The translations under genes and the position numbers were made by a program. The notes below the pieces were generated by a model. It saw nothing but the letters and a program-made list of their open reading frames with translations. It was not told the origin of the DNA and made no database searches. From positions 3,991 through 67,990 of the forward strand of contig CAZEMI010000239.1 of the NCBI GenBank assembly GCA_964513235.1: DNA of 64,000 nt, in the 5' to 3' direction. The DNA is from an uncultured Acidobacterium sp. GTDB lineage: Bacteria > Acidobacteriota > Vicinamibacteria > Vicinamibacterales > UBA2999. Below are positions 14,948 through 55,519 of this stretch, piece by piece (positions within the stretch are counted from its first letter, which is position 1; every line of letters begins with the position of its first letter).

Positions 14948-14951
<4 letters not shown>
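12720..14951 (-). CDS. Secreted caspase-like peptidase (C14) with PEGA-like domain and TPR repeats
   Basis: Signal peptide; YALIVGIARY; intact dyad YFAGHG and TDACHSG; DVDVYLDGKLVG (PEGA-like); multiple TPR helices (ALDIDPDY, AIDPTH). Confidence 0.85.
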
Positions 14952-16879
<1,928 letters not shown>

Positions 16880-39166: not shown

Positions 39167-39511
39167 TTACGTGGGATCAACCTCGCGGATCTCGATCGAG
39201 CCGAAATCGAGGTGCGGGCAGTCCTTGCTCAGCTCGACCACTTCTTCGTAACTGTTCGCCTCGACGATGAACAGGCCGCCGATCACCTCGCGCGCTTCGG
39301 CGTAGGGGCCGTCGGTGACCTTTGTGCTCCCCGACCCGCCGCGCATCACGCGGCCCTGGCCGTCGGTGAGCTTGTGGCCCTCAACCTTGCGGCCGTTCTG
39401 CTGGATCTTCTGCCGCCATGTGACGTAGCGCTGGATGATGGCCTGGATCTGGTCGGGGCTGATGTCGGCCGGGAAGCCGGCGTCGTGCAAGAGCATGATG
39501 AACTTGGGCAT
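39167..39511 (-). CDS. YciI/DGPF-family protein
   Basis: AAGGAG RBS; VTDGPYAEAREVIGGLFIVEA, GSIEIREV. Confidence 0.9.
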   Translation of the reverse strand: MPKFIMLLHDAGFPADISPDQIQAIIQRYVTWRQKIQQNGRKVEGHKLTDGQGRVMRGGSGSTKVTDGPYAEAREVIGGLFIVEANSYEEVVELSKDCPHLDFGSIEIREVDPT

Positions 39512-39656
39512 AAGGCACTCCTTGTCGGGATCCGGGATCCGGGATCCGCTAGTTGCCCAATTGACGATCAACCGTCCGCAAAATCGACAACACGGTTTCA
39601 GGGAAGCGCGTCATTGTAACCAACCCTTTGCCGGCCCATCCCGTCTGATACTTCGA

Positions 39657-40067
39657 ATGTCTAGGTATCCCGCGGATTTCCTCCACGGCACGCTCGACAC
39701 CCTCATCCTCAAGACCCTCACCGGCGGTCCCATGCACGGCTACGCCATCGGCAAGTGGATCGAGGACGCCACCGATTCCACGATCGAGCTGGAAGAAGGG
39801 TCGCTCTATCCCGCGCTGTATCGGCTCGAAAAGCGCGGGCTGCTCGATGCCGAGTGGGGCACGTCCGAGCTCGGGCGGCGCGCCAAGTTTTATCGCCTGA
39901 CGCGCGCCGGCCGGCAGCAACTCGCCAGCCACGCCGCGGCCTGGGCGGAGTTCTCCGCGGCGGTCAATCGCGTGCTGTTGTCGGCCTTCGCTCGCGCGGG
40001 TTCTGGCGAGCTACGGCGAGATCTCGCCGTAGCGCCCTCCGGGCGCGGAGGCGGGCGAGGAGTGTAA
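39657..40067 (+). CDS. PadR-family regulator (acidobacterial ADOP-associated type)
   Basis: GTLDTLILKTL..GPMHGYAI, EEGSLYPALYRLEKRG, RRAKFYRLT; 3' end extended through a palindrome. Confidence 0.9.
   Translation: MSRYPADFLHGTLDTLILKTLTGGPMHGYAIGKWIEDATDSTIELEEGSLYPALYRLEKRGLLDAEWGTSELGRRAKFYRLTRAGRQQLASHAAAWAEFSAAVNRVLLSAFARAGSGELRRDLAVAPSGRGGGRGV
39984..40052. repeat. REP-like element with a perfect 24-bp central palindrome, inside the PadR 3' end
   Basis: gctacggcgagatctcgccgtagc (40010-40033) enclosed by gccttcgc / gcggaggc. Confidence 0.75.
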
Positions 40068-40069
40068 CG

Positions 40070-42727
40070 ATGGCTATTCGCAGGCGGTTGCGATCGCTCC
40101 TGTGGCGCGTGCCGATCGAGCAGGAAGTGCAGGAGGAGCTCGATCATCACATCGCGCTCAGAACGCAGGAGCTCGTCGACACAGGCGTCGATCCCGCCGA
40201 GGCGCGTGCGCAGGCACGGCGCCGGATCGAGAAGGCACGCCTCGAAGCCGAGCTCACGCGCCTGGGCCGCGAGCGCAACACCACCTGGGCGCGCCGTGAA
40301 GCGCTCGACGAGCTTCGCCAGGATCTCGCCTTCGCGCTGCGGCAGTGCCGCACCAAGCCGGGATTCACGATGGCGGCCGTGCTTACCCTGGCGCTTGGCC
40401 TTGGCGCCACCACCGCGATCTTCAGCGTGGTGCACGCCGTGGTGCTCACACCGTACGCGTACCCGGACCCCGATCGCGTAGTGCTCACGTTCTCGCTGCT
40501 GCGCGGCAACCGCGGCAGCTGGTCGGTGGGGAATTTCCACTACTTCGATCAGCGGTTGACGACCACGTCGCATTTCGCCGCCGCCGCGGGGACCAGCCTC
40601 AACCTCGCCGGCGCCGGCGACCCCGAGCGCGTGGTCGGCAGGCGCGTCACGCATGACTTCTTCCCACTCTTCGGCATCGCGCCGGCGCTTGGGCGCACCT
40701 TCACGGCCGACGAGGATCAACCGGGCCGCACCAACGTGGTGGTGCTCAGCCATCGGCTGTGGCAGCGGCGATTCAACGCCGATCCTAGCCTCCTCGGGCG
40801 CGCCATCCGGATCAATGGCGAGCAGTACGACGCGATCGGCGTGATGCCTCCGGATTTCGATCGGATCGGCGATGCCGCCGAGGCGTGGATTCCCGCCGGC
40901 TTCACGCCCGCGCAGCTCGCCATGTTCGACGAGTTCTACCTCGACGTGTACGCGCGGCACAGACCGGAATTCTCGCTCGCGCAGGTCAACGACGAGTTCG
41001 TGCGAGTCGGGCGGCAACTGTCGGTCGATCAGGCATTCATGAACGCCGAGCGCAGTGCCGGCGTGGAACGGCTGAGCACGTTCTATATCGGCGATTACCG
41101 GCTGCGCTTGTTGATCCTGCTCGGCGCGGTTGGCCTCGTGCTGCTCATCGCCTGCGGCAACGTCGCCAACCTCCAGCTCGCCCGGCTCGCGGCCCGCTCG
41201 CGCGAGCTCGCCATTCGCGCCGCCATCGGTGCCGGGCGCGGCCGCATCGTCCGGCAGGTGTTGACCGAGAGCCTCGTGCTGGCCGGCCTCGGCGGCGCGG
41301 CCGGTGTCGTGGTGGCTTATTGGGCCCTGCCGATGCTCGTCGCGATGGCGCCGGACGGCGTGCCGCGACTGACGACGGCACGCCTGAACGGCAGCGTGCT
41401 CGCGGCCGCCGGCCTCCTGGTGGTGCTGAGCGCGATCATCGTCGGGCTGCTCCCGGCGTGGCAGGCGACGCGGCGCCGGTTGTTGACCGACGACCTGGGC
41501 GACGGTAAAGGCGCGTTGAGCGGGACGCTCAAACCATGGATGCGCCAACTGTTGATCGGCGCGCAAGCGGCGATCGTGATGATCGTCCTGTCTGGTGCGG
41601 CGTTACTGGTACGCAGCGCCATCAATCTCCAACAGGAGCCCATGGGCTTCGACATCAACGGCGTGCTGAGCGCGCGGATCGCGTTGCCGGCGGCGCAATA
41701 CGGTCCGCCAGAGACCTCGCGCGCGGCCTACCGCCAGGTGCTCGAGCGCGTCGCGGCGTCACCAGGTGTCCGTTTCGCCGCGCTGGATTCACAGGCGCCG
41801 CTGGTGACCCGCGGCGGCTCGAACGGGCTGCTGCCGGAAGGACGACAGCAGGGCGGCGATCTCATCCAGTCCGACTCGCACTTCGTGACGCCCGACTACT
41901 TCAAGGTGTTGAACATCACGCTCACAGCGGGACGCACGTTCACGGACGCCGACATCCGCCAGGCGCCGCTGGTGATGGTGATCAACGAAACGCTCGCGCG
42001 CGCGGCCTACGGCGATGCCGATCCGATCGGCAAACGGATGATCTGCTGTGAAGGCTCGCCCGACGATCCGATGTGGAAGACCGTGATCGGCGTGGTCGGC
42101 GACGTCAAAGGCCGCGGGCCGGCGCAACCGCCGCGTCCGGAGTTCTACCTGCCGCTCATGCAGGTACCCGATCTGGCCTGGACGTGGTTCGGCCGCACGC
42201 TCACCATCCTCACGCGCGGCGACGATCCCGCGTCGATGACCACGGCGATTCGAGAGTCGGTGCGATCGCTCGACCGCAGCCTGCCCGTGTTCGCGATCCG
42301 CACGATGGACGAGGGCCTCGACCGAGTCATGGCGCAGGCGCGCTTCAACACGATGTTGATGACGCTGCTGGCCGCCACGGGCCTGCTGCTGGCGGCGCTG
42401 GGGATCTACAGCGTGATCGCATGGCTGGTGGTGCAGCGCACGCGCGAGATCGGCGTGCGCATGGCGCTGGGCGCCTCGACGCGTGACGTGATCAGGATGA
42501 TGAGCGTGCACGGGCTGAAACCGGTGATCGCCGGACTCGCGGTTGGCGTCGCCGGCGCGCTGGCGACGACGCGGTTGCTGCAGAACCAGTTGTTCGAAGT
42601 CGGCCCGCGCGATCCGATCACGCTGGTCGCCACGGCCGCGGTGCTGCTCGTCGTGGGCGGCGCCGCGGCGGCGATTCCGGCGTGGCGCGCCACCGCCATC
42701 GATCCGTCGGCGGCACTACGGGATTAA
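40070..42727 (+). CDS. ADOP-family duplicated ABC permease with N-terminal prefix domain
   Basis: EQEVQEELDHHIALR prefix; LRQDLAFALRQ; two FtsX halves; IDPSAALRD; start ATG 40070 after GAGGAG. Confidence 0.9.
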   Translation: MAIRRRLRSLLWRVPIEQEVQEELDHHIALRTQELVDTGVDPAEARAQARRRIEKARLEAELTRLGRERNTTWARREALDELRQDLAFALRQCRTKPGFTMAAVLTLALGLGATTAIFSVVHAVVLTPYAYPDPDRVVLTFSLLRGNRGSWSVGNFHYFDQRLTTTSHFAAAAGTSLNLAGAGDPERVVGRRVTHDFFPLFGIAPALGRTFTADEDQPGRTNVVVLSHRLWQRRFNADPSLLGRAIRINGEQYDAIGVMPPDFDRIGDAAEAWIPAGFTPAQLAMFDEFYLDVYARHRPEFSLAQVNDEFVRVGRQLSVDQAFMNAERSAGVERLSTFYIGDYRLRLLILLGAVGLVLLIACGNVANLQLARLAARSRELAIRAAIGAGRGRIVRQVLTESLVLAGLGGAAGVVVAYWALPMLVAMAPDGVPRLTTARLNGSVLAAAGLLVVLSAIIVGLLPAWQATRRRLLTDDLGDGKGALSGTLKPWMRQLLIGAQAAIVMIVLSGAALLVRSAINLQQEPMGFDINGVLSARIALPAAQYGPPETSRAAYRQVLERVAASPGVRFAALDSQAPLVTRGGSNGLLPEGRQQGGDLIQSDSHFVTPDYFKVLNITLTAGRTFTDADIRQAPLVMVINETLARAAYGDADPIGKRMICCEGSPDDPMWKTVIGVVGDVKGRGPAQPPRPEFYLPLMQVPDLAWTWFGRTLTILTRGDDPASMTTAIRESVRSLDRSLPVFAIRTMDEGLDRVMAQARFNTMLMTLLAATGLLLAALGIYSVIAWLVVQRTREIGVRMALGASTRDVIRMMSVHGLKPVIAGLAVGVAGALATTRLLQNQLFEVGPRDPITLVATAAVLLVVGGAAAAIPAWRATAIDPSAALRD

Positions 42728-43981
42728 CACCGGGCGCGCGGCCGATTCCCACTGGGCGTCCCAGCGTTGCGGCGGATTCTGCCGCAGCCACGCGCGGGAT
42801 TTCGCCAGCGGACCGTCAGGCGCGATTGATCGGGTGGCGACGCTGACGAGGAGACTCGCGAGGTCGCCTGGATCGCGGAACGTGACGCCTTCGTGTCCCG
42901 TCTCCATCACTTCACCGAGCACCTGCGAGTAGTCGTAAGTGGCGGCCGGCACGCCCGCGCCGCGCAGATCGGCCAGCTTCATCGGCAAGTCGAGTCCCGA
43001 CGAGGACTGGTGCAGGCAGAGGCCGAGGTCGGCCATGCCGACGAGCGTCGGATAATCGGCTGGCTCCAGCCACGCCGTCTTCACGGCAATCGCCGTGAAG
43101 TTGCGGCGAGCCGCGCGCTGCTCGAACGTGTCACGCAGTGGGCCGCGGCCGGTGAGAAAGACCGCGAGGTCCGCCCCGCCCGTCGCTTCGCCGGGGTTCG
43201 CGCCGGCGGCGGCGGCCGATCGCGCACGCGTCAGCGTCCGCTCCGCGCGCTCAAGCGCTTCGAGCAGCAGATCGAAATCCTCGTCCGGCGTCCAGCTGGT
43301 GGGGCACACCACGATGGGCGGACGTGTGGCGCCGAGGTGATACTCGGCGGCGAGCCTGTTCCACAGCGCCGCCGCCACCTCCGGCGATGGCGGCGCGAAC
43401 GACGCCGCGGGCCGGTCGTACACGACCACCGGCTTCACACGATATTCGCGCGCCAGCCAGTCCCCCATCGCCTGCGACACCGCCAAGTGTCCGTCGGCGC
43501 GCTTCGCCCACCGCCGCTCGCTTCGCGCCAAAGACTTCACCGCGCGATGGCCCTCACCCACCGTCACCGCGGCAATGGTGTGCGAGAGGTTGTGCCAGTC
43601 GATCACGACGCGCGCGCCGCGCAGGCGCGCGGCGAGCCAGGCCATCGAGAGCGCCGGCACCGCCGGCGGGTTTTGCACGAGGATCACCTCGGGCTTGGGA
43701 ATGCGCATCAGCGTCGAGAAGAGGCGCGCCGCTTGCCCGGCGGCGCGCAGTGCCGATCCCCAGACGAACCGGCGGACGCCGCCTGTCGCGCGGCCGGCGA
43801 ACGCCCGGTCGCGCAGGCGATGACAATGAATCCGTGCGTTCCCCGACACGGCCGGCACCGTCGGCGCCCCTTCGAGCCCGATGAGATCCACCTCGCTGCC
43901 CGCGGCGGCGAGCGACACCGCGTGGTACTGCATGCGCGGGCTGCGGCCCAGATCTCCGATTACGATAACGGCGGTTCTCAT
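42716..43981 (-). CDS. ALG1-like beta-1,4-mannosyltransferase (GT33-like), no N-terminal TM anchor
   Basis: GDLGRSPRMQYHAVSLA, VQNPP, VIDWHN, VYDRP, TSWTPDEDFDLLL, TGRGPLR, WLEPADYP..ADLGLCLHQSSSGLDLPMK. All match eukaryotic ALG1 signature blocks as recalled, in the same order. Confidence 0.85.
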   Translation of the reverse strand: MRTAVIVIGDLGRSPRMQYHAVSLAAAGSEVDLIGLEGAPTVPAVSGNARIHCHRLRDRAFAGRATGGVRRFVWGSALRAAGQAARLFSTLMRIPKPEVILVQNPPAVPALSMAWLAARLRGARVVIDWHNLSHTIAAVTVGEGHRAVKSLARSERRWAKRADGHLAVSQAMGDWLAREYRVKPVVVYDRPAASFAPPSPEVAAALWNRLAAEYHLGATRPPIVVCPTSWTPDEDFDLLLEALERAERTLTRARSAAAAGANPGEATGGADLAVFLTGRGPLRDTFEQRAARRNFTAIAVKTAWLEPADYPTLVGMADLGLCLHQSSSGLDLPMKLADLRGAGVPAATYDYSQVLGEVMETGHEGVTFRDPGDLASLLVSVATRSIAPDGPLAKSRAWLRQNPPQRWDAQWESAARPVLIP

Positions 43982-44970
43982 TGAGCTTGTACCTGCTACT
44001 CGGCGTTAGCGGTGCCGCGCTGGCCCTGTTCCTGACCCCGCTGATTGGACGGGGTTCGACCGTGCTTGGACTGGTAGACGCCCCGGGGGGCAGGAAGGTT
44101 CATGCGCAATCGGTGCCTCGCCTGGGCGGCGTGGCGGTCGTGCTGGCCGCCGCGCTCGCGCTGGCGATCGTACCCGCATTGCTGCCGGGGTCCCGCGATC
44201 CCGAGATCTGGGTGGCGATGAGGCCCTTTGTGGTCGGCGGCCTCCTCATCTTCCTCGCCGGCCTCGTCGATGATATCCGCGGGCTTGGACCGGCGCCGAA
44301 GCTGCTCGTCGAGGTTCTCGCGGCCGCGGTCATGATCGCCTCGGGATTGTTGATCGAACGCGTCACGATTCTCGGCAGCACCTGGACGCTCGGATGGATC
44401 GCCTACCCGGTGACGGCGGCCTGGCTGGTCGGCGTCACCAACGCGTTCAACCTGATCGATGGCGTGGACGGGCTGGCGCCGGGCATTGCGGCGGTCGCCG
44501 GCGCGGCCTGCGGCGCCCTCCTCATCGTCCGCGGCCACACGGCCGAAGCCATGCTGCTGGCGGCGTTTGTCGGCGCGATGCTCGGGTTCCTGGTCTACAA
44601 CTTCGAGCCCGCGTCGATCTTCCTCGGCGACAGCGGCAGCCTGGTCGCCGGTTTCCTGCTCGCGGCGACGGCCATCGCCGGCTGGCAGAAGGGTGCGACG
44701 GCGCTCGCGTCGGCGGTACCCTTGCTGATCTTCGCGCTGCCGCTCGCCGACGCCGCGTCGGCACTGATGCGCCGCGCGCTGGCGCGGCCGACCCATGGCC
44801 GATCGCTCGGCGCCGTGATGCGGCAGGTGGTTGAACCGGATCGCGAGCACATCCATCATCGGCTGCTCGGTCTCGGGTGGTCGGTCCGCCGCACCGTGCT
44901 CATCCTCTACGGCGTGACCGCCGTGCTGTCGATCCTGGCGCTGGCGACCGCGCAAGTAGACGCCAGATGA
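43981..44970 (+). CDS. WecA/TagO-type polyprenyl-phosphate GlcNAc-1-phosphate transferase (PNPT family, includes ALG7/MraY)
   Basis: DAPGGRKVH..VPRLGG, GLVDD, NAFNLIDGVDGLA, IFLGDSGS, PDREHIHHRL; TTG start at 43981 or 43987. Confidence 0.88.
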   Translation: MSLYLLLGVSGAALALFLTPLIGRGSTVLGLVDAPGGRKVHAQSVPRLGGVAVVLAAALALAIVPALLPGSRDPEIWVAMRPFVVGGLLIFLAGLVDDIRGLGPAPKLLVEVLAAAVMIASGLLIERVTILGSTWTLGWIAYPVTAAWLVGVTNAFNLIDGVDGLAPGIAAVAGAACGALLIVRGHTAEAMLLAAFVGAMLGFLVYNFEPASIFLGDSGSLVAGFLLAATAIAGWQKGATALASAVPLLIFALPLADAASALMRRALARPTHGRSLGAVMRQVVEPDREHIHHRLLGLGWSVRRTVLILYGVTAVLSILALATAQVDAR

Positions 44971-46145
44971 AGGCCACAAATGGCACGGAACCGCATTCCA
45001 GCAAGCGCGTGCTGCTGGTGCAGCCGTCGATGCAGCCGCCGGGCGGCGGCCACGGCGTGGCCGCATGGGTGCTGCAGGCGCTGGCGCCGGAACATCGCGT
45101 CACCGTGCTGTCGTGGCGGCCGGTCGAGATCGATCCGATCAACCGCTTCTTCGGCACGCACCTGAAGCCCGCCGATTTCGACACGCTCGTGGTGCCGTGG
45201 CACTGGCGCGTCATCCCCGATCATCTGCCGGTGCCGGCGGCGCTGGTCAGGCTGTCGCTGATGATGCGCTACACGCGCCGGGTCAGCCGCGGGTTCGAGG
45301 TGGTGTTCGGCATGTTCAACGAGACCGATTACGGCCGCAAGGGTATTCAATACGTTCACTATCCGACCTATCTGCGCCCGCGTCCGGCGGTGGACCTGCG
45401 GTGGTATCACGCCGCGCGGTGGCCGCTGCGGCTTTACTATGCCGCCGCCGATCGTCTCGCGCACTTCTCACACGATCGCCTGAAACAGAACCTGACGCTG
45501 GTGAACTCCGACTGGACGGGCCGGCACGTCCAGGGGTTTCTCGGCGTTCCGACGCGGACGTTGTACCCGCCGGTTGCCGATCCGGCGCCGGGCGCGCCGT
45601 GGGCGGAGCGCCGCCACGGCTTTCTCGCCATCGGCCGCCTCTCTCCGGAAAAGGAGTTCGAGCGCGTGATGACGATCCTGGCGCGGGTCCGCGACCGGGT
45701 CCCGGCCGTCACGCTGACGATCATCGGCACGTGGGACCACCAGGCGCGCCGCTATCGCGATCGGCTCTTCGATCGGGCGCGGTCGCTGGGACCGTGGATT
45801 ACATTCCGGCAGAACATCAGCCGCGACGAGATCCGCGCCCTGATGGCCACGCATCGCTATGGCATCCATGGCATGCGCGAGGAACATTTCGGGATGGCGC
45901 CCGCGGAGCTCGCGCGGGCCGGCTGCATCGTGTGGGTGCCGCGCGGCGGCGGGCAGATGGAAGTCGTCGGCGGTGAGCCCGCGTTGATGTACGACTCGGA
46001 GGATGACGCGGTCGAGAAGATCGCGAGAACGCTCGCGTCGCCGGCCGAACAGGATCGGCTGCGTCAGGTCCTCACCGCGAGCGAGCGGTTTTCGACCGCC
46101 AACTTCGTCAGGCAGGTCCGCGACATCGTCGAGGAGTTCAGGTGA
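44967..46145 (+). CDS. GT4 glycosyltransferase with ALG11-like motifs
   Basis: PPGGGHGVAAW, YVHYPT, VNSDWT, LYPP, IGRLSPEK, GIHGMREEHFGMAPAE; ATG 44967 overlaps the wecA stop (ATGA). Confidence 0.8.
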   Translation: MKATNGTEPHSSKRVLLVQPSMQPPGGGHGVAAWVLQALAPEHRVTVLSWRPVEIDPINRFFGTHLKPADFDTLVVPWHWRVIPDHLPVPAALVRLSLMMRYTRRVSRGFEVVFGMFNETDYGRKGIQYVHYPTYLRPRPAVDLRWYHAARWPLRLYYAAADRLAHFSHDRLKQNLTLVNSDWTGRHVQGFLGVPTRTLYPPVADPAPGAPWAERRHGFLAIGRLSPEKEFERVMTILARVRDRVPAVTLTIIGTWDHQARRYRDRLFDRARSLGPWITFRQNISRDEIRALMATHRYGIHGMREEHFGMAPAELARAGCIVWVPRGGGQMEVVGGEPALMYDSEDDAVEKIARTLASPAEQDRLRQVLTASERFSTANFVRQVRDIVEEFR

Positions 46146-47913
46146 GCTGTCGGAATCCGGGATCGCGCATCAGCTCGTCGTAGGTGCCGAGGCCGGCAAT
46201 GCCGCCGTCGCGCAAGTAGATCAACTGATCGCAGCCCTTCACCGTCGACAACCGGTGTGCGATCGCAATTACGGTGCGCAAGCCGTGAACGTTGGCGATG
46301 GCCTCGGTCACTTCGCGTTCGGTCTGGTTGTCGAGCGCCGCGGTGGCTTCATCGAAGACCAGCACCTGCGGATCGTGATAGAGCGCGCGCGCAATCGCCA
46401 CGCGTTGCCGTTGCCCACCCGACAGGCGAATGCCGTTTTCGCCAATCACCGTCTCCAACCTGTTGGGCAGCGCGGCGACGACCTCGTCGAGCCTGGCCTG
46501 CGACACCGCGTTGGCCAGCCGCTGTTCATCGATCGCGCTGTCGGGAATGCCGAACGCGATATTGCGGCTCAGCGAATCGTCGAGCAGATACACGTCCTGC
46601 GGGACGTAGCCAATCTGGCGCTGCCACGCCCGCTCCCGGCCGTCGAGCGGCTGGCCGTCGATCAGCACGCGGCCGCTCGTCGGCGCGAGCAGGCCCAGCA
46701 GCAGGTCGACCAGGGTGCTCTTGCCGGCGCCGGTGGGGCCGACGATGCCGATCGATTGCCCGCGCGCAATCGTGAACGAGATGTGATCGAGCGCGGGGGC
46801 CGGCGCGTCCTCGTAGCGAAACGACACATCCTCGCACGCCAGGGTGGCCTGCAGCATCGGCGGCACGGGTTCGTAGGTCCGCGTCGCGGGCGGCTTCAGC
46901 CGCCGCATGTCCTCGTCCATGCCGCGGATCCACGGGTGCGCCTCGCGCATGTAGCCGACGTTCAGCATGATCCGGTTGGCCGACGGCACGACGCGGAATC
47001 CCGTATACGCGAACAGCGCCAGCACCGACACGATGTAGGCGCTCGGCACGGCCGCGCGCATCACCAGAAAGACGACGATCAACATGCTGAGGATGAGCGT
47101 GGCTTCGACGCCCAGCCGCGCCACCGCCGCCGCCGTCGCGCGCCGCTGCTTGGTGGCGCCGAGCTCGCGCTTCACGTCGCGGAAACGCTCCTCGAAGAAT
47201 GGCTGCCGGCCCGTGACTGTCACGTCCTTGATGGCGCCGAGGCTCTGCTGCAGCAGATGGAGCTGCTGCTGATAGAGCGTGCGCTCGGTGGCGCCGATGC
47301 GCTCCCACGAACGGCGCGTCAGGACGATCGGCACGAGCACCACGCCAAGCACCACCGCCACGGTGACGACCGTGACCAGCGGCGCCGACACGATCAGGAC
47401 GATGGCGAGGGCGGTGATGGTGGCGGCTTCGGCAAGGATGTTCACCGCCGATCCGGCGCCGAGCTCGAACGCGATATCAGAGGTCCGCGACACCGGTTCG
47501 ATCAACGACGCCGAGCGCCGCTTGACGTGGAATAAATAGTCGGCGGCGAGATACCGGGCGAGCAGCCGTTCGCCGGCGATCGCCGAGGACCCGTAGACGG
47601 TCCTCATCCGCACCCATTCGGCCCACGACAGGAACGCCGCACGCAGGACGTAGAACGCGGCGACCGCGAGCGCGAGCAAGGCCACCATCGCGCGGGGCTG
47701 GTATCGCGACGGCATCAGGGTCCACAAGTCCGACACCACCGGCGCGGTCCGCACCAGTTCGGGATCGACGACCAGCCGCAACAACCCGAACACCGCCAAC
47801 GCGCCCGCGGCTTCGATCAGCGCGGCCATCCCGGCGATCGGCACGAGCAAGAGCCACCGCCAGCGCCATCGCGCCGGCAGCCATCCGATCACGGATCGTA
47901 GGTCGCGCAACAA
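46138..47913 (-). CDS. PglK/WlaB-like ABC exporter (TMD + NBD), candidate lipid-linked glycan flippase
   Basis: RYLAADYLFHVKRRSASL (PglK-type coupling region), GPTGAGKST, LSGGQRQR, VFDEATAALD, IAHRL. Confidence 0.85.
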   Translation of the reverse strand: MLRDLRSVIGWLPARWRWRWLLLVPIAGMAALIEAAGALAVFGLLRLVVDPELVRTAPVVSDLWTLMPSRYQPRAMVALLALAVAAFYVLRAAFLSWAEWVRMRTVYGSSAIAGERLLARYLAADYLFHVKRRSASLIEPVSRTSDIAFELGAGSAVNILAEAATITALAIVLIVSAPLVTVVTVAVVLGVVLVPIVLTRRSWERIGATERTLYQQQLHLLQQSLGAIKDVTVTGRQPFFEERFRDVKRELGATKQRRATAAAVARLGVEATLILSMLIVVFLVMRAAVPSAYIVSVLALFAYTGFRVVPSANRIMLNVGYMREAHPWIRGMDEDMRRLKPPATRTYEPVPPMLQATLACEDVSFRYEDAPAPALDHISFTIARGQSIGIVGPTGAGKSTLVDLLLGLLAPTSGRVLIDGQPLDGRERAWQRQIGYVPQDVYLLDDSLSRNIAFGIPDSAIDEQRLANAVSQARLDEVVAALPNRLETVIGENGIRLSGGQRQRVAIARALYHDPQVLVFDEATAALDNQTEREVTEAIANVHGLRTVIAIAHRLSTVKGCDQLIYLRDGGIAGLGTYDELMRDPGFRQLT

Positions 47914-48033
47914 GGGGAACCTGCTTACTATTTACGCTTCATGTAAAAAGGAACCTGCTTCCCTTTTACGTGGTTCGTAAGAGCAATGCAGATTCTGCCA
48001 CTTTGTGGCGAAATTGTTCAGCTACACTGCCGT

Positions 48034-49368
48034 ATGCAAGACCTCACGACGGGTTCCCTCACAGGTCATCTCCTCAAAACGACCAGCTTCATGCTGGTCA
48101 GCATGATCTTCCAGACGTTGTACGTGCTGGTGGATCTGTTCTGGGTGGGGCGCCTGGGAACCGACGCGATCGCCGCCGTCGGCCTGAGCGCCAACCTGTC
48201 GTTCATCGTCATTGCCATCACGCAAGTGCTGGCGGTTGGGGCGACGACGCTCGTGTCGCATGCGGCGGGCACGAAGGATCAGGAGCGGGCGATCTTCCTG
48301 TTCAACCAGTCGCAGGTGCTGTCGATGGTCGTGGGGATCCTGTTTCTCGGAATCGCGATGGCGCTGCGGCATCAGTACGCGGCCGGCCAGAGCGCCACCG
48401 AGGGCATGCGCATCGCCACCGAGGAGTACTTACTCTGGTTCATTCCGGCGATGGCGCTCCAATTCGCGATGGTGGCCATGGGCGCGGCGCTGCGCGGCAC
48501 CGGCAACTTCAAGCCGGGTATGTATGTGCAGACCGGCACCGTGATCATCAACATGGTGCTCGCGCCGTTCCTGATTTTCGGCTGGGGACCGTTTCCGCGG
48601 ATGGGCGTGAGCGGCGCGGCGGTGGCAACGCTGCTCGCGATCGTCGTCGGCGTGGTCTGGATCTCGTTCTACTTCATCGATGCGAAAGCGTACTTGCGCT
48701 TCCATGCCGGCAGCTGGCGCCCGCAGCTGCGCGTGTGGTGGCAGATGCTGAGGATCGGGCTGCCGGCCGGCGCCGAGTTCGCCTTGATGGGCATCTACAT
48801 GGCCGTGGTCTACGCGATCACCCGGCCGTTCGGGGCCGCTGCCCAGGGCGGATTCACGATTGGCCTGCGCATCGTGCAGTCGGCGTTTCTGCCGGTGGTG
48901 GCACTGGGCTTCGCGGTGGCCCCGGTGGCCGGCCAGAACTTCGCGGCGCGCAAGGGCGAGCGCGTCCGCGCCGCGTTCAAGGCCGCCGCGGGCATGGCGG
49001 CGGGCGCGATGCTGGTGGCCGGGATCGTGATTTTCTTCGCCGCGGTTCCGTTGATGCGCATCTTCACCAGCGATCCCGACGTCATCTCGGTGGGCGTGGA
49101 ATACCTGCGTATCGTGGTGCTGAATTTCGTGGCCTCGGGCATCACGTTCGTGTCGTCGAGCATGTTCCAGGCGATGGGCAACACCATGCCGTCGCTGGTC
49201 ACGTCGGCGCTGCGGCTCTTCGTGAGCATTATTCCCGCGATATTGCTGTCGCGAGTGGCCGGGTTCCACCTGACGTGGATCTGGTACATCAGCGCGGTGG
49301 CGGTGTTCCTGCAGATGAGCGTGAACCTCTTCCTGCTGCAGCGCGAATTCCGACTGAAGCTGGCGTAG
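48034..49368 (+). CDS. MATE-family efflux transporter
   Basis: DLTTGS, LYVLVDLFWVGRLGTDAIAAVG, LRGTGN..PG, GVSGAAVAT, QAMGNT; start re-called at ATG 48034. Confidence 0.9.
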   Translation: MQDLTTGSLTGHLLKTTSFMLVSMIFQTLYVLVDLFWVGRLGTDAIAAVGLSANLSFIVIAITQVLAVGATTLVSHAAGTKDQERAIFLFNQSQVLSMVVGILFLGIAMALRHQYAAGQSATEGMRIATEEYLLWFIPAMALQFAMVAMGAALRGTGNFKPGMYVQTGTVIINMVLAPFLIFGWGPFPRMGVSGAAVATLLAIVVGVVWISFYFIDAKAYLRFHAGSWRPQLRVWWQMLRIGLPAGAEFALMGIYMAVVYAITRPFGAAAQGGFTIGLRIVQSAFLPVVALGFAVAPVAGQNFAARKGERVRAAFKAAAGMAAGAMLVAGIVIFFAAVPLMRIFTSDPDVISVGVEYLRIVVLNFVASGITFVSSSMFQAMGNTMPSLVTSALRLFVSIIPAILLSRVAGFHLTWIWYISAVAVFLQMSVNLFLLQREFRLKLA

Positions 49369-52529: not shown

Positions 52530-54041
52530 GTGTATGCTGGGCGGGTGCATTACCTGCTTCGCCGGACGCGACGCGTCAAACTGATCCTCCCGGCCCTCAC
52601 CGAAGCCACCAGCCCCTACTGGCGACCCGTCAAATATTCGCTGTTTCCGCCGCTCGGCCTGGCCACGCTCGCCGCGTATCTCGATCACGACGCCGAGGTC
52701 GCGCTCCAGGACGAGCACGTCGAGCCGCTCGACCTCGACGACGACCCGGACCTGGTAGTGATCCAGGTCTACATCACCAATGCGTATCGCGCCTACCGCA
52801 TCGCGGACCACTACCGGCGCAAGGGCGCGCACGTGGCGCTCGGCGGCCTGCACGTCACCTCCCTGCCCGATGAGGCCGCGCCCCACGCCGACACGATCTT
52901 TCTCGGCCCAGGCGAAGACACGTTCCCCCAATTCCTTCGCGACCTCGCCGGCGGCGTGCCGAAACGTCGTTATGTGTCGCAACTGAGAACGCTCGATCAC
53001 CTGCCGCCCATTCGCCGCGACCTGATCCGGCGCCACCGCTACCTCGTGCCCAATTCGATCGTCGTGTCTCGCGGCTGTCCGCACCACTGCACGTTCTGCT
53101 ACAAGGACGCCTTCTTCGAGGGCGGGCGCTCGTTCTACACGCAGCGCGTGGATGCGGCGCTCGCGGAGATCAACCGGCTGCCGGGACGCCACCTGTATTT
53201 CCTCGACGATCACCTGCTCGGCAACCGCAGGTTCGCCCGCGAGTTGTTCACCGGCATGACCGGGATGAACCGGGTGTTCCAGGGCGCGGCCACCGTGGAT
53301 TCGATCCTGCGCGACGACACGATCGAATACGCCGCCGCCGCGGGCCTGCGCAGCCTGTTCGTGGGATTCGAGACGCTGTCGCCGCGCGGCCTGGCCGGCG
53401 CCGGCAAGCGACAGAACCTCGGCCGCCCATTCGACTCGCCGATTGGCGCGGTGCGCCAGTCGGCTCGCTCAGGGCAGGCGACCCACTATCGGGAGGCCAT
53501 CCGCCGGCTCGACGATCTCGGCATCATGATCAACGGCAGCTTCGTCTTCGGCCTCGATGGCGACGATCCCGACGTGTTTCGGCGCACCGTCGATTGGGCC
53601 GTGGCGAGCGGCATCACGACCGCGACCTTTCACGTGCTCACGCCCTATCCGGGCACGCAGCTGTACGCCGAGATGACCGGGCAAGGGCGAATCGTGACCG
53701 GCAACTGGGATCTCTACGACACGCGGCACGTGGTCTATCGGCCGCTTGGGCTGTCCGCGGAGGAGCTCACGCGCGGCTACGACTGGTCGTACCGCGCCTT
53801 CTATGAGTGGGGCGCCATCGTCAAGGGGGCATTCGCGCATCGATCGGCGAAGCATTCCCTGAAGCACTTCGCGTACAGCGCCGGCTGGAAGAAGTTCGAG
53901 CCCGCGTGGGACGTCGTCATTCGCCTCAAGCAACTGGCGCAGATGCGGCCGTTGCTCGAGGCGATCCTCGCACCCGTGCGACACGCTCCGCAAATCGCGG
54001 CAGCCCCGGTTGCGCTAGAATCGCGGCACCTCTCCCGTTGA
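52530..54041 (+). CDS. B12-binding radical SAM protein
   Basis: PPLGLATLA, LGGLHVT (B12 domain), SRGCPHHCTFC (CxxxCxxC), FVGFET, GSFVFGLDGD, LTPYPGT; likely start GTG 52545. Confidence 0.92.
   Translation: MYAGRVHYLLRRTRRVKLILPALTEATSPYWRPVKYSLFPPLGLATLAAYLDHDAEVALQDEHVEPLDLDDDPDLVVIQVYITNAYRAYRIADHYRRKGAHVALGGLHVTSLPDEAAPHADTIFLGPGEDTFPQFLRDLAGGVPKRRYVSQLRTLDHLPPIRRDLIRRHRYLVPNSIVVSRGCPHHCTFCYKDAFFEGGRSFYTQRVDAALAEINRLPGRHLYFLDDHLLGNRRFARELFTGMTGMNRVFQGAATVDSILRDDTIEYAAAAGLRSLFVGFETLSPRGLAGAGKRQNLGRPFDSPIGAVRQSARSGQATHYREAIRRLDDLGIMINGSFVFGLDGDDPDVFRRTVDWAVASGITTATFHVLTPYPGTQLYAEMTGQGRIVTGNWDLYDTRHVVYRPLGLSAEELTRGYDWSYRAFYEWGAIVKGAFAHRSAKHSLKHFAYSAGWKKFEPAWDVVIRLKQLAQMRPLLEAILAPVRHAPQIAAAPVALESRHLSR
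53425..53475. repeat. REP-like palindrome inserted in frame in the radical SAM gene
   Basis: gccc-a-ttcgactc...gctcagggc is the reverse complement of the 29427 element, with a 12-bp inner hairpin gccgattggcgc/gcgccagtcggc. Confidence 0.75.
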
Positions 54042-54053
54042 GAGTGACGAACC

Positions 54054-54443
54054 ATGAAGTCGCCAAACGGCCGCTGCACGGTCACGAAGATCGACTACAA
54101 CGAAACTCGCATGGGTGGTCCGCTGATCGGGCGGATTCACGTCGATGGCGGCCGCGCGAAAACCGGGGAGCGCGAATTCGGAGAGGCGATGGCGTTTAGT
54201 CCCGACTCGCGTTACCTGGCCATCGGCGAACTCGTCGGCGTGACCAGGGACCATGCCGGGCCGCACAGCCAGGTCGTGGTTTTCGACCTCGAGCTGGGGA
54301 AGGAATACGTCGTTCATGACGAATACGGCGGATTGATCCACGGCGTGTCCTGGGATGTGCAAGGCTGCCTGTCGGTGACCGCGTGGCGGTACCCGGACGG
54401 TGAATCGGAACACCGCGACGTTTGGGGGCCGAGCCTGCCATGA
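54054..54443 (+). CDS. Small beta-rich hypothetical protein (partial propeller-like)
   Basis: AFSPDSRYLAIGE..VVVFDL; stop overlaps the next ATG. Confidence 0.55.
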   Translation: MKSPNGRCTVTKIDYNETRMGGPLIGRIHVDGGRAKTGEREFGEAMAFSPDSRYLAIGELVGVTRDHAGPHSQVVVFDLELGKEYVVHDEYGGLIHGVSWDVQGCLSVTAWRYPDGESEHRDVWGPSLP

Positions 54444-55012
54444 TCGATCAGATCGCGGCGGTGATCGTGAGCGAGAACAAATGGCTGCCGCTGGCCATGT
54501 CCGCGGCGGTCGGGTCGGTGGCCGTGTTGCTCGCCCGGCAGCGCGGCTCGGATCTGCCCACGACTCGCCTCGTGATGGCGGCGATGAATCTCTTCGCCGG
54601 CGTCATGCTCGCGACGATGGGAGCCGGGCACGTGCTGGCGGTGACCACGAAGCTGCTGCTCGGGACGCTGGAAGGATCACCGCTCGTCCTGTATCCAATC
54701 GGCGCCGCGGTCCTCGTGCCGTCGTGGCTCGTCATCGCTCACACCCGCGCGATCATGGTCAGAGCGGATTCCGGCAGGACAACCATCGGCCTCAACGCCT
54801 GGCTCGCCGTCACGCTCATGGCGCTGGGGCTGCACAACTTGCCGCTCGCGGCGCCCTCGTTGTTAAATATCGGCTATCGCCTGCACTCGCGCCGGGCGAT
54901 CGGCATGGCGATCGTCAGCGTGGCGGTGGTGTTCAACGTGGCGCTGTTCATCGGCGCGTTGGTGTTCATGGCCAGCGGACAGACGTTCGAACAGTTCAGT
55001 GAAATCGAATAG
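54440..55012 (+). CDS. Integral membrane protein of unknown function
   Basis: Five to six hydrophobic helices; start ATG 54440. Confidence 0.65.
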   Translation: MIDQIAAVIVSENKWLPLAMSAAVGSVAVLLARQRGSDLPTTRLVMAAMNLFAGVMLATMGAGHVLAVTTKLLLGTLEGSPLVLYPIGAAVLVPSWLVIAHTRAIMVRADSGRTTIGLNAWLAVTLMALGLHNLPLAAPSLLNIGYRLHSRRAIGMAIVSVAVVFNVALFIGALVFMASGQTFEQFSEIE

Positions 55013-55021
55013 GCACTGCCT

Positions 55022-55519
55022 ATGACGGTCGATCCTGATCCCGCCGCGCTCGTCTCGTCGTTCGCCGACGCGGCACTGCGTGTCGAGACGTTGGGTCGGC
55101 TGCAACAGCTCGGCGTCGCGGCGCTGCCGGCGGTCCGGGAAGGGCTGAAGCACCCCGACTGGCACATCCGGCACTGGTGCGCCATCTACCTCGATCGCGG
55201 CGCCGATCCCGAGACGCTCCGCGACCTGGTGCCCTTGCTGACGGATCCGGAACCTAAAGTGCGCGTGTGGGCGATCCATTCGATCTCGTGCGAGCACTGC
55301 AAGGATGACGAGTGCCCGGTCGACGTGGTGCCTCTGCTAATCGAGCGTGCCGAGCGGGATAGCGTGCCGCGCGTTCGGAAGATGGCAATCGCGATGCTGG
55401 CCAGCCTGCCCGACGATCCCCGGATCGCCCCGGTCCTGCAACGCGCGCTCGTGGTCGAGTCGGATGCGAAAATTCGCCTGCACGCCAGGCTCGGTCTCGA
55501 GAAGTATTCAACCGCGTAA
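55022..55519 (+). CDS. HEAT-repeat protein with a CxxCx4C motif
   Basis: LKHPDWHIRHW, LTDPEPKVRVWA, DSVPRVRKMA; SCEHCKDDEC. Confidence 0.7.
   Translation: MTVDPDPAALVSSFADAALRVETLGRLQQLGVAALPAVREGLKHPDWHIRHWCAIYLDRGADPETLRDLVPLLTDPEPKVRVWAIHSISCEHCKDDECPVDVVPLLIERAERDSVPRVRKMAIAMLASLPDDPRIAPVLQRALVVESDAKIRLHARLGLEKYSTA

What the first reader, a model, noticed from the sequence alone, without database searches (positions are those of the whole stretch)
42716..43981. Bacterial protein colinear end to end with eukaryotic ALG1
Seen: GDLGRSPRMQYHAVSLA, QNPP, IDWHN, YDRP, TSWTPDEDF, TGRGPL, WLEPADYP and LCLHQSSSGLDLPMK. From recall, human ALG1 has GDVGRSPRMQYHALSLA, QNPP, IDWHN, YDKP, TSWTEDEDF, TGKGPL, WLEAEDYP and VCLHTSSSGLDLPMK in the same order. 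ALG1 (GT33) is generally regarded as a eukaryotic (and some archaeal) enzyme. The ER N-terminal TM anchor is missing here, and codon style matches the GC-rich neighbours. Inference: an ancient prokaryotic ALG1 lineage or an ameliorated transfer from eukaryotes, either of which bears on the origin of N-glycosylation.
Basis: partly seen in the sequence, partly recalled or inferred. Interest (0 to 1): 0.85.

Follow-up and report, generated by a model that had tools for sequence, protein, structure and literature searches.

The report
Bacterial ALG1-type mannosyltransferase in glycan operon
This acidobacterial gene is a true relative of ALG1, the enzyme that adds the first mannose to the eukaryotic N-glycan precursor. 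Bacterial ALG1 relatives were already reported in 2025, so it is a new member of a known kind, notable mainly for the gene neighbourhoods it points to.

Summary
ORF 42716-43981 (-) encodes 421 aa with all eight quoted motifs in order. It aligns end to end with database eukaryotic ALG1 proteins at 35-36% identity (E 1e-74 to 1e-80). It keeps every family-invariant residue and models as a GT-B fold (pLDDT 96). It has no N-terminal membrane anchor.

It is not a generic GT4 and the contig is not chimeric. Gene content is bacterial (Vicinamibacterales, Acidobacteriota) and the same synteny recurs in about 45 independent assemblies.

It is not unprecedented. JGI already names these proteins beta-1,4-mannosyltransferase. 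A 2025 preprint found 204 bacterial ALG1 homologues and showed ALG1 activity for three of five tested, including one from Binatia; Binatia homologues retrieved here are about 40% identical to this protein.

The gene sits in a conserved four-gene module: ALG1-like, a WecA-like GlcNAc-1-P transferase, a GT4 enzyme and a PglK/MsbA-type ABC exporter. I read this as a lipid-linked oligosaccharide assembly and flipping unit.

In other lineages (Binatia, Alphaproteobacteria, unnamed metagenome contigs) the ALG1-like gene lies beside a GT28 (MurG/Alg13-14-like) gene, an ALG2-signature GT4 and STT3-family oligosaccharyltransferases. That is a eukaryote-like gene set. This clade lacks GT28 and STT3 nearby, so its acceptor and final target are open.

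An old bacterial lineage is favoured over a recent transfer from eukaryotes.

The parts
42716..43981 (-). ALG1-like (GT33-type) glycosyltransferase, 421 aa. Predicted cytoplasmic, peripheral-membrane, inverting GDP-Man beta-1,4-mannosyltransferase. No membrane anchor.
   Evidence: ORF. It is 35-36% identical end to end to database eukaryotic ALG1. Named eukaryotic ALG1 proteins are among the top 150 representatives. All 8 invariant and 40 near-invariant family columns are kept. AlphaFold2 gives a GT-B fold with pLDDT 96. No hydrophobic segment reaches membrane-helix level.
43664..43675 (-). QNPP motif, residues 103-106. Q103 aligns with yeast Alg1 Q136, which was reported as irreplaceable for activity.
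   Evidence: Coordinates. Q103 and P106 are near-invariant and P105 is invariant. The Q136 mutants are described in preprint 10.1101/2023.12.27.573458. The mapping uses a yeast sequence recalled from memory, whose numbering fits that paper.
42977..43021 (-). C-terminal signature LCLHQSSSGLDLPMK, residues 321-335, in the nucleotide-sugar-binding domain.
   Evidence: Coordinates. S326 and D331 are invariant. H324, S328, G329, L332, P333, M334 and K335 are near-invariant across bacterial and eukaryotic members.
43907..43957 (-). N-terminal signature GDLGRSPRMQYHAVSLA, residues 9-25. It follows the first beta-strand directly, with no membrane anchor before it.
   Evidence: Eukaryotic members carry a hydrophobic N-terminal extension before this motif.
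43981..44970 (+). WecA/MraY-family polyprenyl-phosphate HexNAc-1-phosphate transferase, the functional counterpart of ALG7. It is transcribed divergently, and its TTG start shares base 43981 with the ALG1-like ATG.
   Evidence: Pfam PF00953 at 7.5e-40. NCBIfam WecA model at 1.9e-37, below the equivalog cut-off. PDB matches to MraY and human DPAGT1. It is adjacent to the ALG1-like gene in most of the Vicinamibacterales-type loci.
44967..46145 (+). GT4-family retaining glycosyltransferase ('GT4b'), 392 aa from the ATG that overlaps the WecA-like stop codon (ATGA). It has an EX7E motif (EHFGMAPAE) but lacks the ALG2 G-loop.
   Evidence: Pfam PF00534. The ATGA overlap is visible. Orthologues at 37-46% identity accompany ALG1-like genes in Binatia, Alphaproteobacteria and a metagenome contig. 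Public names are only generic.
46138..47913 (-). ABC half-transporter with fused membrane and ATPase domains, MsbA/PglK type. Candidate flippase for the lipid-linked oligosaccharide. It converges on GT4b.
   Evidence: Pfam ABC_membrane plus ABC_tran. NCBIfam MsbA, HepA and PglK models all score below their equivalog cut-offs. Campylobacter PglK is the only bacterial half-transporter among the 60 PDB matches shown, E 1.4e-65 over residues 79-570. It is conserved next to the module in most related loci and near ALG1-like genes in Binatia.

Best explanation
The gene encodes a genuine bacterial member of the ALG1 (CAZy GT33) family. It is predicted to be a soluble or peripherally membrane-bound GT-B enzyme.

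**Inferred reaction.** It transfers mannose from GDP-mannose, with inversion, to the 4-OH of the terminal GlcNAc of a polyprenyl-diphosphate-linked GlcNAc or GlcNAc2.

**Inferred pathway.** It works inside a conserved four-gene module.
1. The divergently transcribed WecA-like enzyme makes undecaprenyl-PP-GlcNAc.
2. A second GlcNAc may be added by an enzyme encoded elsewhere.
3. The ALG1-like enzyme adds beta-1,4-mannose.
4. The translationally coupled GT4b enzyme adds one or more further sugars.
5. The PglK/MsbA-type ABC exporter flips the finished short lipid-linked oligosaccharide to the periplasmic face.
6. An unidentified transferase passes the glycan to its final acceptor.

**What is shown here.** Homology, conserved residues, the predicted fold and the conserved gene order.

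**What is inferred.** The donor, the acceptor, the order of steps, the flipping and the final acceptor.

**Origin.** The gene belongs to an old, diverse bacterial lineage. It is not a recent import from eukaryotes.
For: **Homology**
- Full-length identity of 35-36% to database eukaryotic ALG1.
- Named eukaryotic ALG1 proteins are among the top 150 of 1.84 billion representatives.
- No solved GT4 structure matches by sequence at E<=1.

**Residues and fold**
- All 8 invariant and 40 near-invariant family residues are kept.
- The only departures from strongly conserved consensus positions are conservative.
- Q103 corresponds to the essential Q136 of yeast Alg1.
- The model is a GT-B fold with pLDDT 96.

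**Published activity**
- Bacterial homologues from Gammaproteobacteria, Polyangia and Binatia complement yeast alg1 deletion and make Man-GlcNAc2-PP-phytanyl.
- Binatia homologues retrieved here are about 40% identical to this protein.

**Gene context**
- The module ALG1-like | WecA-like - GT4b | ABC recurs in about 45 independent Vicinamibacterales-type loci at 55-88% identity.
- The WecA-like stop and the GT4b start overlap as ATGA.
- Campylobacter PglK is the only bacterial half-transporter among the 60 PDB matches shown for the ABC protein.
- In other lineages the ALG1-like gene sits beside GT28, ALG2-signature GT4, ABC and STT3 or Wzy_C genes. This ties the family to lipid-linked oligosaccharide assembly followed by en bloc transfer.

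**Bacterial origin of the contig**
- Bacterial gene content across the window.
- Matching GC3.
Against: - No biochemical data exist for this clade.
- Two of the five bacterial homologues tested in the preprint were inactive.
- The clade has no GT28 (second GlcNAc transferase) and no STT3 in the 64-kb window or within 8 kb of the ALG1-like gene in 49 related loci, even with profile HMMs at E<=1. No ALG2-signature GT4 was seen in the module either. The canonical chitobiose acceptor is therefore not assured and the destination of the glycan is unknown.
- The nearest sister groups (P0121-P0124) have a degenerate N-terminal motif. The one with usable context (P0122) is a solitary gene. This shows that the wider clade can drift in function.
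- The ABC protein scores below every NCBIfam equivalog cut-off, so its flippase role is inferred from homology and position only.
Confidence: 0.72

Rival explanations
1. It is an ALG1-family enzyme whose substrate has changed in this clade. For example, it may mannosylate undecaprenyl-PP-GlcNAc (a single GlcNAc) or another acceptor. The product would be a lineage-specific surface glycan (lipopolysaccharide, capsule or glycolipid primer), not a chitobiose-based N-glycan precursor.
For: - GT28 is adjacent to, or within a few kb of, the ALG1-like gene in 11 sampled non-Vicinamibacterales contexts. It is absent from the window and from 49 related loci.
- The ALG2-signature GT4 seen beside ALG1-like genes elsewhere was not seen in this module. 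No STT3 is nearby.
- Two of five tested bacterial homologues were inactive on GlcNAc2-PP-phytanyl.
- Sister groups show motif decay.
Against: - The window protein keeps every invariant and near-invariant residue, with only conservative deviations. This includes the Q of QNPP.
- A second GlcNAc transferase and an oligosaccharyltransferase could be encoded elsewhere in the genome, which I could not inspect.
Confidence: 0.3
2. It is a fairly recent horizontal transfer of ALG1 from a eukaryote into Acidobacteriota, later ameliorated to the host's codon usage.
For: - Identity to eukaryotic ALG1 (34-44%) overlaps the identity to bacterial relatives outside its own clade (about 36-44%).
- The tree backbone is unresolved.
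Against: - The family has 807 50%-identity clusters at E<=1e-30, and labelled genomes place members in several phyla.
- The genes are embedded in conserved bacterial operons with WecA, GT28, ABC and STT3 genes.
- Putative eukaryotic representatives form one cluster. The window clade (bootstrap 100) lies apart from it.
- There is no remnant of the eukaryotic membrane anchor or linker insertion.
Confidence: 0.04
3. It is a generic bacterial GT4 glycosyltransferase whose resemblance to ALG1 is patchy or convergent.
For: - Pfam reports only generic GT4-type N-terminal domains (PF13579, PF13439).
- NCBIfam has no model for it.
- The nearest solved structures are GT4 enzymes.
Against: - The alignment with ALG1 is end to end, with E 1e-74 to 1e-80.
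- No solved GT4 matches by sequence at E<=1.
- Structural matches to GT4 enzymes are at only 13-18% identity.
- Pfam has no ALG1-specific model; I state this from my own knowledge. The generic hits are therefore expected.
Confidence: 0.02

Closest known systems
Eukaryotic ALG1 (chitobiosyldiphosphodolichol beta-1,4-mannosyltransferase, CAZy GT33; yeast Alg1, human ALG1)
   Same: - Full-length colinearity at 31-36% identity.
- The same signature motifs (GDxGRSPRMQYH, QNPP, IDWHN, YDRP, TSWTxDEDF, TGxGP, WLxxxDYP, LHxSSSGLDLPMK).
- The same GT-B fold.
- Conservation of the glutamine reported as essential in yeast, and of a basic residue at the yeast K112 position (R79 here).
   Different: - No N-terminal membrane anchor.
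- A shorter inter-domain linker.
- A short Ala/Gly-rich insertion at residues 252-271.
- The lipid carrier is presumably undecaprenol, not dolichol.
- The gene lies in an operon-like module with a WecA-like enzyme and an ABC exporter.
- Activity is untested.
Bacterial ALG1 homologues of Xu et al. 2025 (bioRxiv 10.1101/2025.10.15.682550): GaALG1, PoALG1, BiALG1
   Same: - Same family.
- Binatia homologues retrieved here are about 40% identical to the window protein.
- Those proteins also lack a eukaryote-style context, yet three of them make Man-GlcNAc2-PP-lipid and rescue yeast alg1 deletion.
   Different: - The window protein belongs to a Vicinamibacterales (Acidobacteriota) clade that the preprint text does not mention.
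- Its neighbourhood lacks the GT28 and STT3 genes that flank the Binatia genes.
- The preprint does not discuss gene context at all.
Campylobacter pgl-type N-glycosylation locus (PglC/PglA/.../PglK/PglB)
   Same: The logic matches: an initiating phosphoglycosyl transferase, cytoplasmic GT-B glycosyltransferases acting on an undecaprenyl-PP carrier, and a PglK-like ABC flippase. In related bacterial loci there is also an STT3/PglB-family oligosaccharyltransferase with a WWDYG motif.
   Different: - Initiation uses a polytopic WecA/MraY-family enzyme, not PglC.
- The glycosyltransferases are ALG1-, ALG2- and GT28-like, so the predicted core is GlcNAc-GlcNAc-Man, not a bacillosamine-GalNAc glycan.
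- No oligosaccharyltransferase is present in this window.
GT4 retaining mannosyltransferases (PimA, PimB', WbdC-type) and BshA/MshA
   Same: GT-B fold and similar domain arrangement. These are the best structural matches.
   Different: Only 13-18% identity, with no detectable sequence match at E<=1. GT4 enzymes are retaining, whereas ALG1/GT33 is inverting.

Membership tests
ALG1 / CAZy GT33 beta-1,4-mannosyltransferase | Full-length sequence homology to characterised ALG1, closer than to any other glycosyltransferase family | tested here: met
   - 35-36% identity over more than 95% of the length to database eukaryotic ALG1, E 2e-74 and 2e-80.
- Named eukaryotic ALG1 proteins are in the top 150 representatives.
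- No solved GT4 matches at E<=1.
- JGI names relatives beta-1,4-mannosyltransferase.
ALG1 / CAZy GT33 beta-1,4-mannosyltransferase | Conserved family signature residues, including the QNPP glutamine (yeast Q136) and the SSSGLDLPMK block | tested here: met
   All 8 invariant and 40 near-invariant columns of a 131-sequence bacterial plus eukaryotic alignment are kept. Deviations from consensus are conservative only. Q136 essentiality is, and the mapping is.
ALG1 / CAZy GT33 beta-1,4-mannosyltransferase | GT-B fold (two Rossmann-like domains) | tested here: met
   AlphaFold2 model with mean pLDDT 96.0 and pTM 0.93. The top Foldseek matches are GT-B enzymes with probability 1.00. No GT33 structure exists in the PDB copy for a direct comparison.
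ALG1 / CAZy GT33 beta-1,4-mannosyltransferase | Inverting transfer of mannose from GDP-Man to GlcNAc2-PP-polyprenol, forming a beta-1,4 linkage | not testable with these tools
   Shown experimentally for bacterial homologues from three lineages, including Binatia; two of the five tested were inactive. Binatia homologues retrieved here are about 40% identical to this protein. Nothing is known for this clade.
ALG1 / CAZy GT33 beta-1,4-mannosyltransferase | N-terminal transmembrane anchor (a eukaryotic feature, not required for catalysis) | tested here: not met
   The ORF starts at the first beta-strand and cannot extend upstream. The maximum hydropathy is 1.27. Eukaryotic representatives carry the anchor. 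Anchor-less yeast Alg1 is used as an active enzyme in vitro, so this feature does not define the family.
Eukaryote-like lipid-linked oligosaccharide / N-glycosylation gene set (ALG7, ALG13/14, ALG1, ALG2, flippase, STT3 equivalents) | Initiating GlcNAc-1-P transferase next to the ALG1-like gene | tested here: met
   WecA/MraY-family gene at 43981-44970. It is adjacent to the ALG1-like gene in most related loci.
Eukaryote-like lipid-linked oligosaccharide / N-glycosylation gene set (ALG7, ALG13/14, ALG1, ALG2, flippase, STT3 equivalents) | GT28 (MurG/Alg13-14-like) second GlcNAc transferase | tested here: not met
   No hit in six-frame translations of the window and 49 related loci, using a profile HMM at E<=1 and tblastn. 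It is present beside ALG1-like genes in Binatia, Alphaproteobacteria and metagenome contigs. The rest of the genome could not be searched.
Eukaryote-like lipid-linked oligosaccharide / N-glycosylation gene set (ALG7, ALG13/14, ALG1, ALG2, flippase, STT3 equivalents) | ALG2-type GT4 with the GIGGAER G-loop and the EX7E motif | tested here: not met
   The window's GT4b has EX7E (EHFGMAPAE) but no G-loop, and it belongs to a different orthogroup. ALG2-signature GT4 genes follow ALG1-like genes in L049, L050 and L063. The signature is defined.
Eukaryote-like lipid-linked oligosaccharide / N-glycosylation gene set (ALG7, ALG13/14, ALG1, ALG2, flippase, STT3 equivalents) | Lipid-linked oligosaccharide flippase | tested here: inconclusive
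   An ABC half-transporter homologous to PglK and MsbA lies adjacent. It scores below every equivalog cut-off, and its substrate cannot be read from sequence.
Eukaryote-like lipid-linked oligosaccharide / N-glycosylation gene set (ALG7, ALG13/14, ALG1, ALG2, flippase, STT3 equivalents) | STT3/PglB/AglB-family oligosaccharyltransferase | tested here: not met
   None in the 64-kb window or in the flanks of 49 related loci. WWDYG-bearing STT3 genes are next to ALG1-like genes in other bacterial lineages. The rest of the genome could not be searched.

The most novel reading that the evidence does not exclude
Some bacteria encode, as one operon-like cluster, a eukaryote-type N-glycan core pathway: a WecA/ALG7-like enzyme, a GT28/ALG13-14-like enzyme, an ALG1-like enzyme, an ALG2-signature GT4, a PglK-like flippase and one or two STT3-family oligosaccharyltransferases.

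On this reading, the window's four-gene module is a lineage-specific derivative of that system, with its transferase encoded elsewhere. Eukaryotic ALG1, and perhaps more of the cytosolic pathway, would descend from such a bacterial cluster.

The cluster architecture is not discussed in the 2025 preprint that reported bacterial ALG1 activity. I found no description of it in the searchable library.
Probability: 0.3. Interest if true: 0.8.

Novelty: new member of a known kind. Interest (0 to 1): 0.5.

Why it matters
The origin of ALG1 was listed as unknown, possibly a eukaryotic innovation, in the main phylogenomic study of N-glycosylation (Lombard 2016). A 2025 preprint argues for a bacterial origin from BLAST hits and enzyme assays.

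This window adds a large Acidobacteriota clade to that picture. It also leads to the native gene neighbourhoods of bacterial ALG1 homologues.

- In this clade the neighbourhood is a compact module: WecA-like, ALG1-like, GT4 and ABC.
- Elsewhere the neighbourhood is a cluster that also carries GT28, ALG2-like and STT3 genes.

If these clusters really build and transfer a GlcNAc2-Man-type glycan, two consequences follow.
- The native role of bacterial ALG1 becomes experimentally testable. Cultured strains carry the fuller cluster: Telmatospirillum sp. J64-1 and Fodinicurvata halophila CECT 8472.
- The scenario that eukaryotes acquired part of the pathway from bacteria gains a concrete donor-type locus.

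Such enzymes are also of practical interest for making eukaryote-like glycans in bacteria.

Tried and rejected
- **PDB sequence search with the ALG1-like protein.** No relevant hit, so no GT33 structure was available for comparison.
- **NCBIfam.** No model for the ALG1-like protein.
- **Database search with GT4b.** I hoped for an ALG2 or ALG11 name. It returned only 'glycosyltransferase involved in cell wall biosynthesis'. A possible resemblance of its PPGGGxxVAAW loop to ALG11 rests on my memory only and is not claimed.
- **Cluster look-up for taxon names of prokaryotic representatives.** Almost all are unnamed metagenome proteins.
- **Neighbour-joining tree with 100 bootstraps.** The backbone is star-like. 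The eukaryote cluster has only 26% support, and 13% for the exact 49-member split. The tree is used only to show that the window clade is distinct and does not group with eukaryotes. No maximum-likelihood software or outgroup was available.
- **Promoter scan of 42500-48100.** No sigma-70-like sites. Terminator-like sites were at chance level.
- **Search for STT3 and GT28 in the window and related loci.** Negative by tblastn and by profile HMM.
- **Genes beyond the module in related loci.** These are housekeeping genes (formate-tetrahydrofolate ligase, amidase, beta-lactamase-fold), not glycosylation genes.
- **Chimeric or eukaryotic contig.** Rejected. Gene content is bacterial and the same gene order occurs in many independent assemblies.
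- **Third large protein search.** Not spent on verifying the recalled human ALG1, because database-derived eukaryotic ALG1 proteins already answered the question.

Full report
**1. The observation**

ORF 42716-43981 on the minus strand encodes a 421-aa protein from an ATG start. All eight quoted motifs are present in the stated order. The reading frame cannot extend upstream, and no segment reaches transmembrane hydrophobicity; the maximum Kyte-Doolittle 19-residue mean is 1.27. The eukaryotic-type N-terminal anchor is therefore truly absent. Codon-position GC is 0.73/0.55/0.85, which matches the neighbouring genes.

**2. Is it really ALG1-like?**

A phmmer search of 1.84 billion cluster representatives found 807 clusters at E<=1e-30. 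Among the best 150, many are 450-510 aa long and carry a hydrophobic N-terminal extension before the GDxGRSPRMQYH motif. Look-ups showed that these include fungal, choanoflagellate and plant proteins. One is named chitobiosyldiphosphodolichol beta-mannosyltransferase, and others beta-1,4-mannosyltransferase.

Pairwise BLASTP gave these values:

| Subject | Source | Identity | E-value |
|---|---|---|---|
| Cephalotrichum ALG1 | database | 36% | 2e-74 |
| Salpingoeca ALG1 | database | 35% | 2e-80 |
| Human ALG1 | my memory | 33% | 4e-78 |
| Yeast Alg1 | my memory | 31% | 7e-68 |

Both database alignments run end to end. The recalled sequences were only soft-checked against residue numbers in papers.

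By contrast, no solved GT4 enzyme matches by sequence at E<=1. Pfam gives only generic GT4-type N-domain hits. NCBIfam has no model.

A 131-sequence alignment of bacterial and eukaryotic members has 8 invariant and 40 near-invariant columns, and the window protein keeps all of them. Its only departures from strongly conserved consensus residues are conservative. Q103 of QNPP corresponds to yeast Q136, which a preprint reports as irreplaceable. R79 sits at the position of yeast K112.

AlphaFold2 gives a confident GT-B model, with pLDDT 96.0 and pTM 0.93. The nearest solved structures are GT4 enzymes (BshA, MshA, PimA) at 13-18% identity. No GT33 structure is in the PDB copy.

**3. Host and contig integrity**

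The closest relatives (70-94% identity) are metagenomic. Where they are named, they come from Vicinamibacterales. Species-representative genomes with 55-88% identical copies are mostly labelled Vicinamibacterales or Acidobacteriota. A few other labels share the same synteny and are probably mislabelled bins.

The window's other genes are typical bacterial genes. They include a TonB-dependent receptor, MacB/FtsX permeases, an outer-membrane efflux protein, a Ser/Thr kinase, transhydrogenase subunits and a sigma factor. The gene order PntAB-MatE-ABC-GT4-WecA-ALG1-MacB-PadR-YCII-sigma recurs in independent assemblies. The contig is neither eukaryotic nor chimeric at this gene.

**4. The local module**

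- The ALG1-like gene is transcribed divergently from a WecA/MraY-family HexNAc-1-P transferase at 43981-44970.
- The two start codons share base 43981.
- The WecA-like stop overlaps the ATG of a GT4 gene as ATGA. This gene, GT4b, spans 44967-46145.
- A PglK/MsbA-type ABC half-transporter at 46138-47913 converges on GT4b. Campylobacter PglK is the only bacterial half-transporter among the 60 PDB matches shown, at E 1.4e-65 over nearly the full length.
- This module is present in about 45 related loci. Thirteen of them carry an extra GT4b paralogue between GT4b and the ABC gene, which the window lacks.
- Genes beyond the module are housekeeping genes.

**5. Wider context of bacterial ALG1-like genes**

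| Lineage or locus | Genes near the ALG1-like gene |
|---|---|
| Binatia-type L050 | WecA-like, STT3, STT3, GT28, ALG1-like, GT4 with the ALG2 G-loop (GIGGGER) and EX7E, ABC |
| Binatia L048, L049, L051, L052 | Subsets of the L050 set |
| Alphaproteobacteria L055-L057, including cultured Telmatospirillum sp. J64-1 and Fodinicurvata halophila | STT3, GT28, ALG1-like, GT4b-like |
| Metagenome contigs | STT3-ALG1 |
| Metagenome contig | STT3-x-ALG1-ALG2-like-x-GT28 |
| Metagenome contig | GT28 / ALG1 with an ABC gene nearby |
| Metagenome contig | Wzy_C-GT28 / ALG1-ALG2-like-GT4b-like ... ABC |

The STT3 proteins carry WWDYG.

Across 14 informative contexts outside the window's clade, STT3 lies within 10 kb in 10 and GT28 in 11.

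In the window's clade neither gene is found. This holds for the 64-kb window and for 49 loci with up to 8 kb on each side, using profile HMMs at E<=1. No ALG2-signature GT4 was seen there either.

The nearest sister representatives (P0121-P0124) have a degenerate N-terminal motif. The one with usable context, P0122, is a solitary gene next to formate-tetrahydrofolate ligase.

**6. Mechanism proposed**

*Shown here:* family membership by sequence, residues and predicted fold, and the conserved gene linkage.

*Shown by others:* bacterial homologues from three lineages, including Binatia, transfer a mannose to GlcNAc2-PP-phytanyl. The product is extended by human ALG2, and the genes rescue yeast alg1 deletion. 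Two of the five tested were inactive. Binatia homologues retrieved here are about 40% identical to this protein.

*Inferred for this gene:*
1. The WecA-like enzyme makes undecaprenyl-PP-GlcNAc.
2. A second GlcNAc may be added by an enzyme that is not linked to the module.
3. The ALG1-like enzyme adds beta-1,4-mannose from GDP-Man by an inverting mechanism.
4. GT4b, a retaining enzyme with an EX7E motif, extends the glycan.
5. The ABC exporter flips the short lipid-linked oligosaccharide.
6. An unidentified enzyme transfers it.

The main uncertainty is the acceptor (GlcNAc or GlcNAc2) and the destination of the glycan. This clade lacks GT28, the ALG2-like GT4 and STT3 nearby.

**7. Evolution**

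A neighbour-joining tree of 149 sequences is star-like. The putative eukaryotic representatives fall in one cluster with weak support (26%). The Vicinamibacterales clade has 100% support on its own stem and is not next to the eukaryotes.

Identity of the window protein is 34-44% to eukaryotes. It is about 36-44% to bacterial relatives outside its own wider clade and 48% to the sister representatives P0121-P0124.

Together with the breadth of the bacterial family and its operon contexts, this favours an old bacterial lineage over a recent eukaryote-to-bacterium transfer. The tree is unrooted and poorly resolved, so the direction of the ancient transfer is not settled here.

**8. Prior knowledge and novelty**

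- Lombard 2016 could not place ALG1 and suggested it might be a eukaryotic innovation.
- Xu et al. 2025 (bioRxiv 10.1101/2025.10.15.682550) reported 204 bacterial homologues, no reliable archaeal one, and enzymatic activity.
- JGI pipelines already name these proteins beta-1,4-mannosyltransferase.

The finding is therefore a new member of a known kind.

The Xu et al. preprint does not mention STT3, PglB, operons, gene clusters or Acidobacteria. My literature searches found no description of the ALG1-GT28-ALG2-STT3 clusters. The library is incomplete, so this is not proof of novelty.

**9. Verdict**

- Interest is moderate. The gene itself is an expected member of a recently recognised bacterial ALG1 family.
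- The gene neighbourhoods it leads to are the more interesting result and deserve follow-up.

Noticed in passing
L050:32-12317 (Binatia-type MAG); also L048, L049, L051, L052: One cluster encodes a WecA-like enzyme, two paralogous STT3-family oligosaccharyltransferases (61% identical, both with WWDYG), a GT28 (MurG/Alg13-14-like), an ALG1-like enzyme, a GT4 with the ALG2 G-loop and EX7E motifs, and a PglK-like ABC exporter. This is the full eukaryote-like gene set.
   Followed up: partly
L056:2345-13401 (Telmatospirillum sp. J64-1); L057 (Fodinicurvata halophila CECT 8472); L055: Cultured Alphaproteobacteria carry STT3, GT28, ALG1-like and GT4b-like genes together. In L056 a 972-aa autotransporter with PATR repeats follows directly and could be a glycoprotein substrate.
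   Followed up: partly
L063:171-6234 (metagenome contig): A Wzy_C-domain protein (O-antigen ligase or O-oligosaccharyltransferase type) takes the place of STT3. It lies next to GT28, ALG1-like, ALG2-signature GT4 and GT4b-like genes. The same glycan core may therefore feed different transfer systems.
   Followed up: no
window 43979-43983: The ALG1-like ATG (minus strand) and the WecA-like TTG (plus strand) share base 43981, so there is no intergenic promoter region. The same head-to-head arrangement recurs in many related loci. No sigma-70-like promoter was found.
   Followed up: partly
window 46138-46145 compared with L030:4738-5862: The closest genome relative (88% identity), and twelve other loci, carry an extra GT4b paralogue between GT4b and the ABC gene. 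In the window the GT4b and ABC genes overlap tail to tail and this paralogue is absent.
   Followed up: partly
L061:3204-4457 (protein P0122); also P0121, P0123, P0124: The sister group of the window's clade has lost the GDxGRSPR motif. P0122 is a solitary gene next to formate-tetrahydrofolate ligase, with no WecA, GT4 or ABC partners. This may be a decaying or repurposed ALG1-like gene.
   Followed up: no
window 39435-42727: A PadR-like regulator ORF precedes a 990-aa permease with duplicated MacB_PCD and FtsX domains, the acidobacterial duplicated-permease type. The permease converges on the ALG1-like gene with a 12-base overlap. In other relatives this position is taken by formate-tetrahydrofolate ligase.
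   Followed up: no
window 12720-16879: A caspase-domain protein with TPR repeats and a PEGA domain lies next to a Ser/Thr protein kinase with DUF4384.
   Followed up: no
window 54422-55012 and 57611-59248: Two well-supported ORFs by GC3 (196 aa and 545 aa) have no Pfam match. They lie near a B12-binding radical SAM gene (52530-54041) and a HEAT-repeat protein (55022-55519).
   Followed up: no
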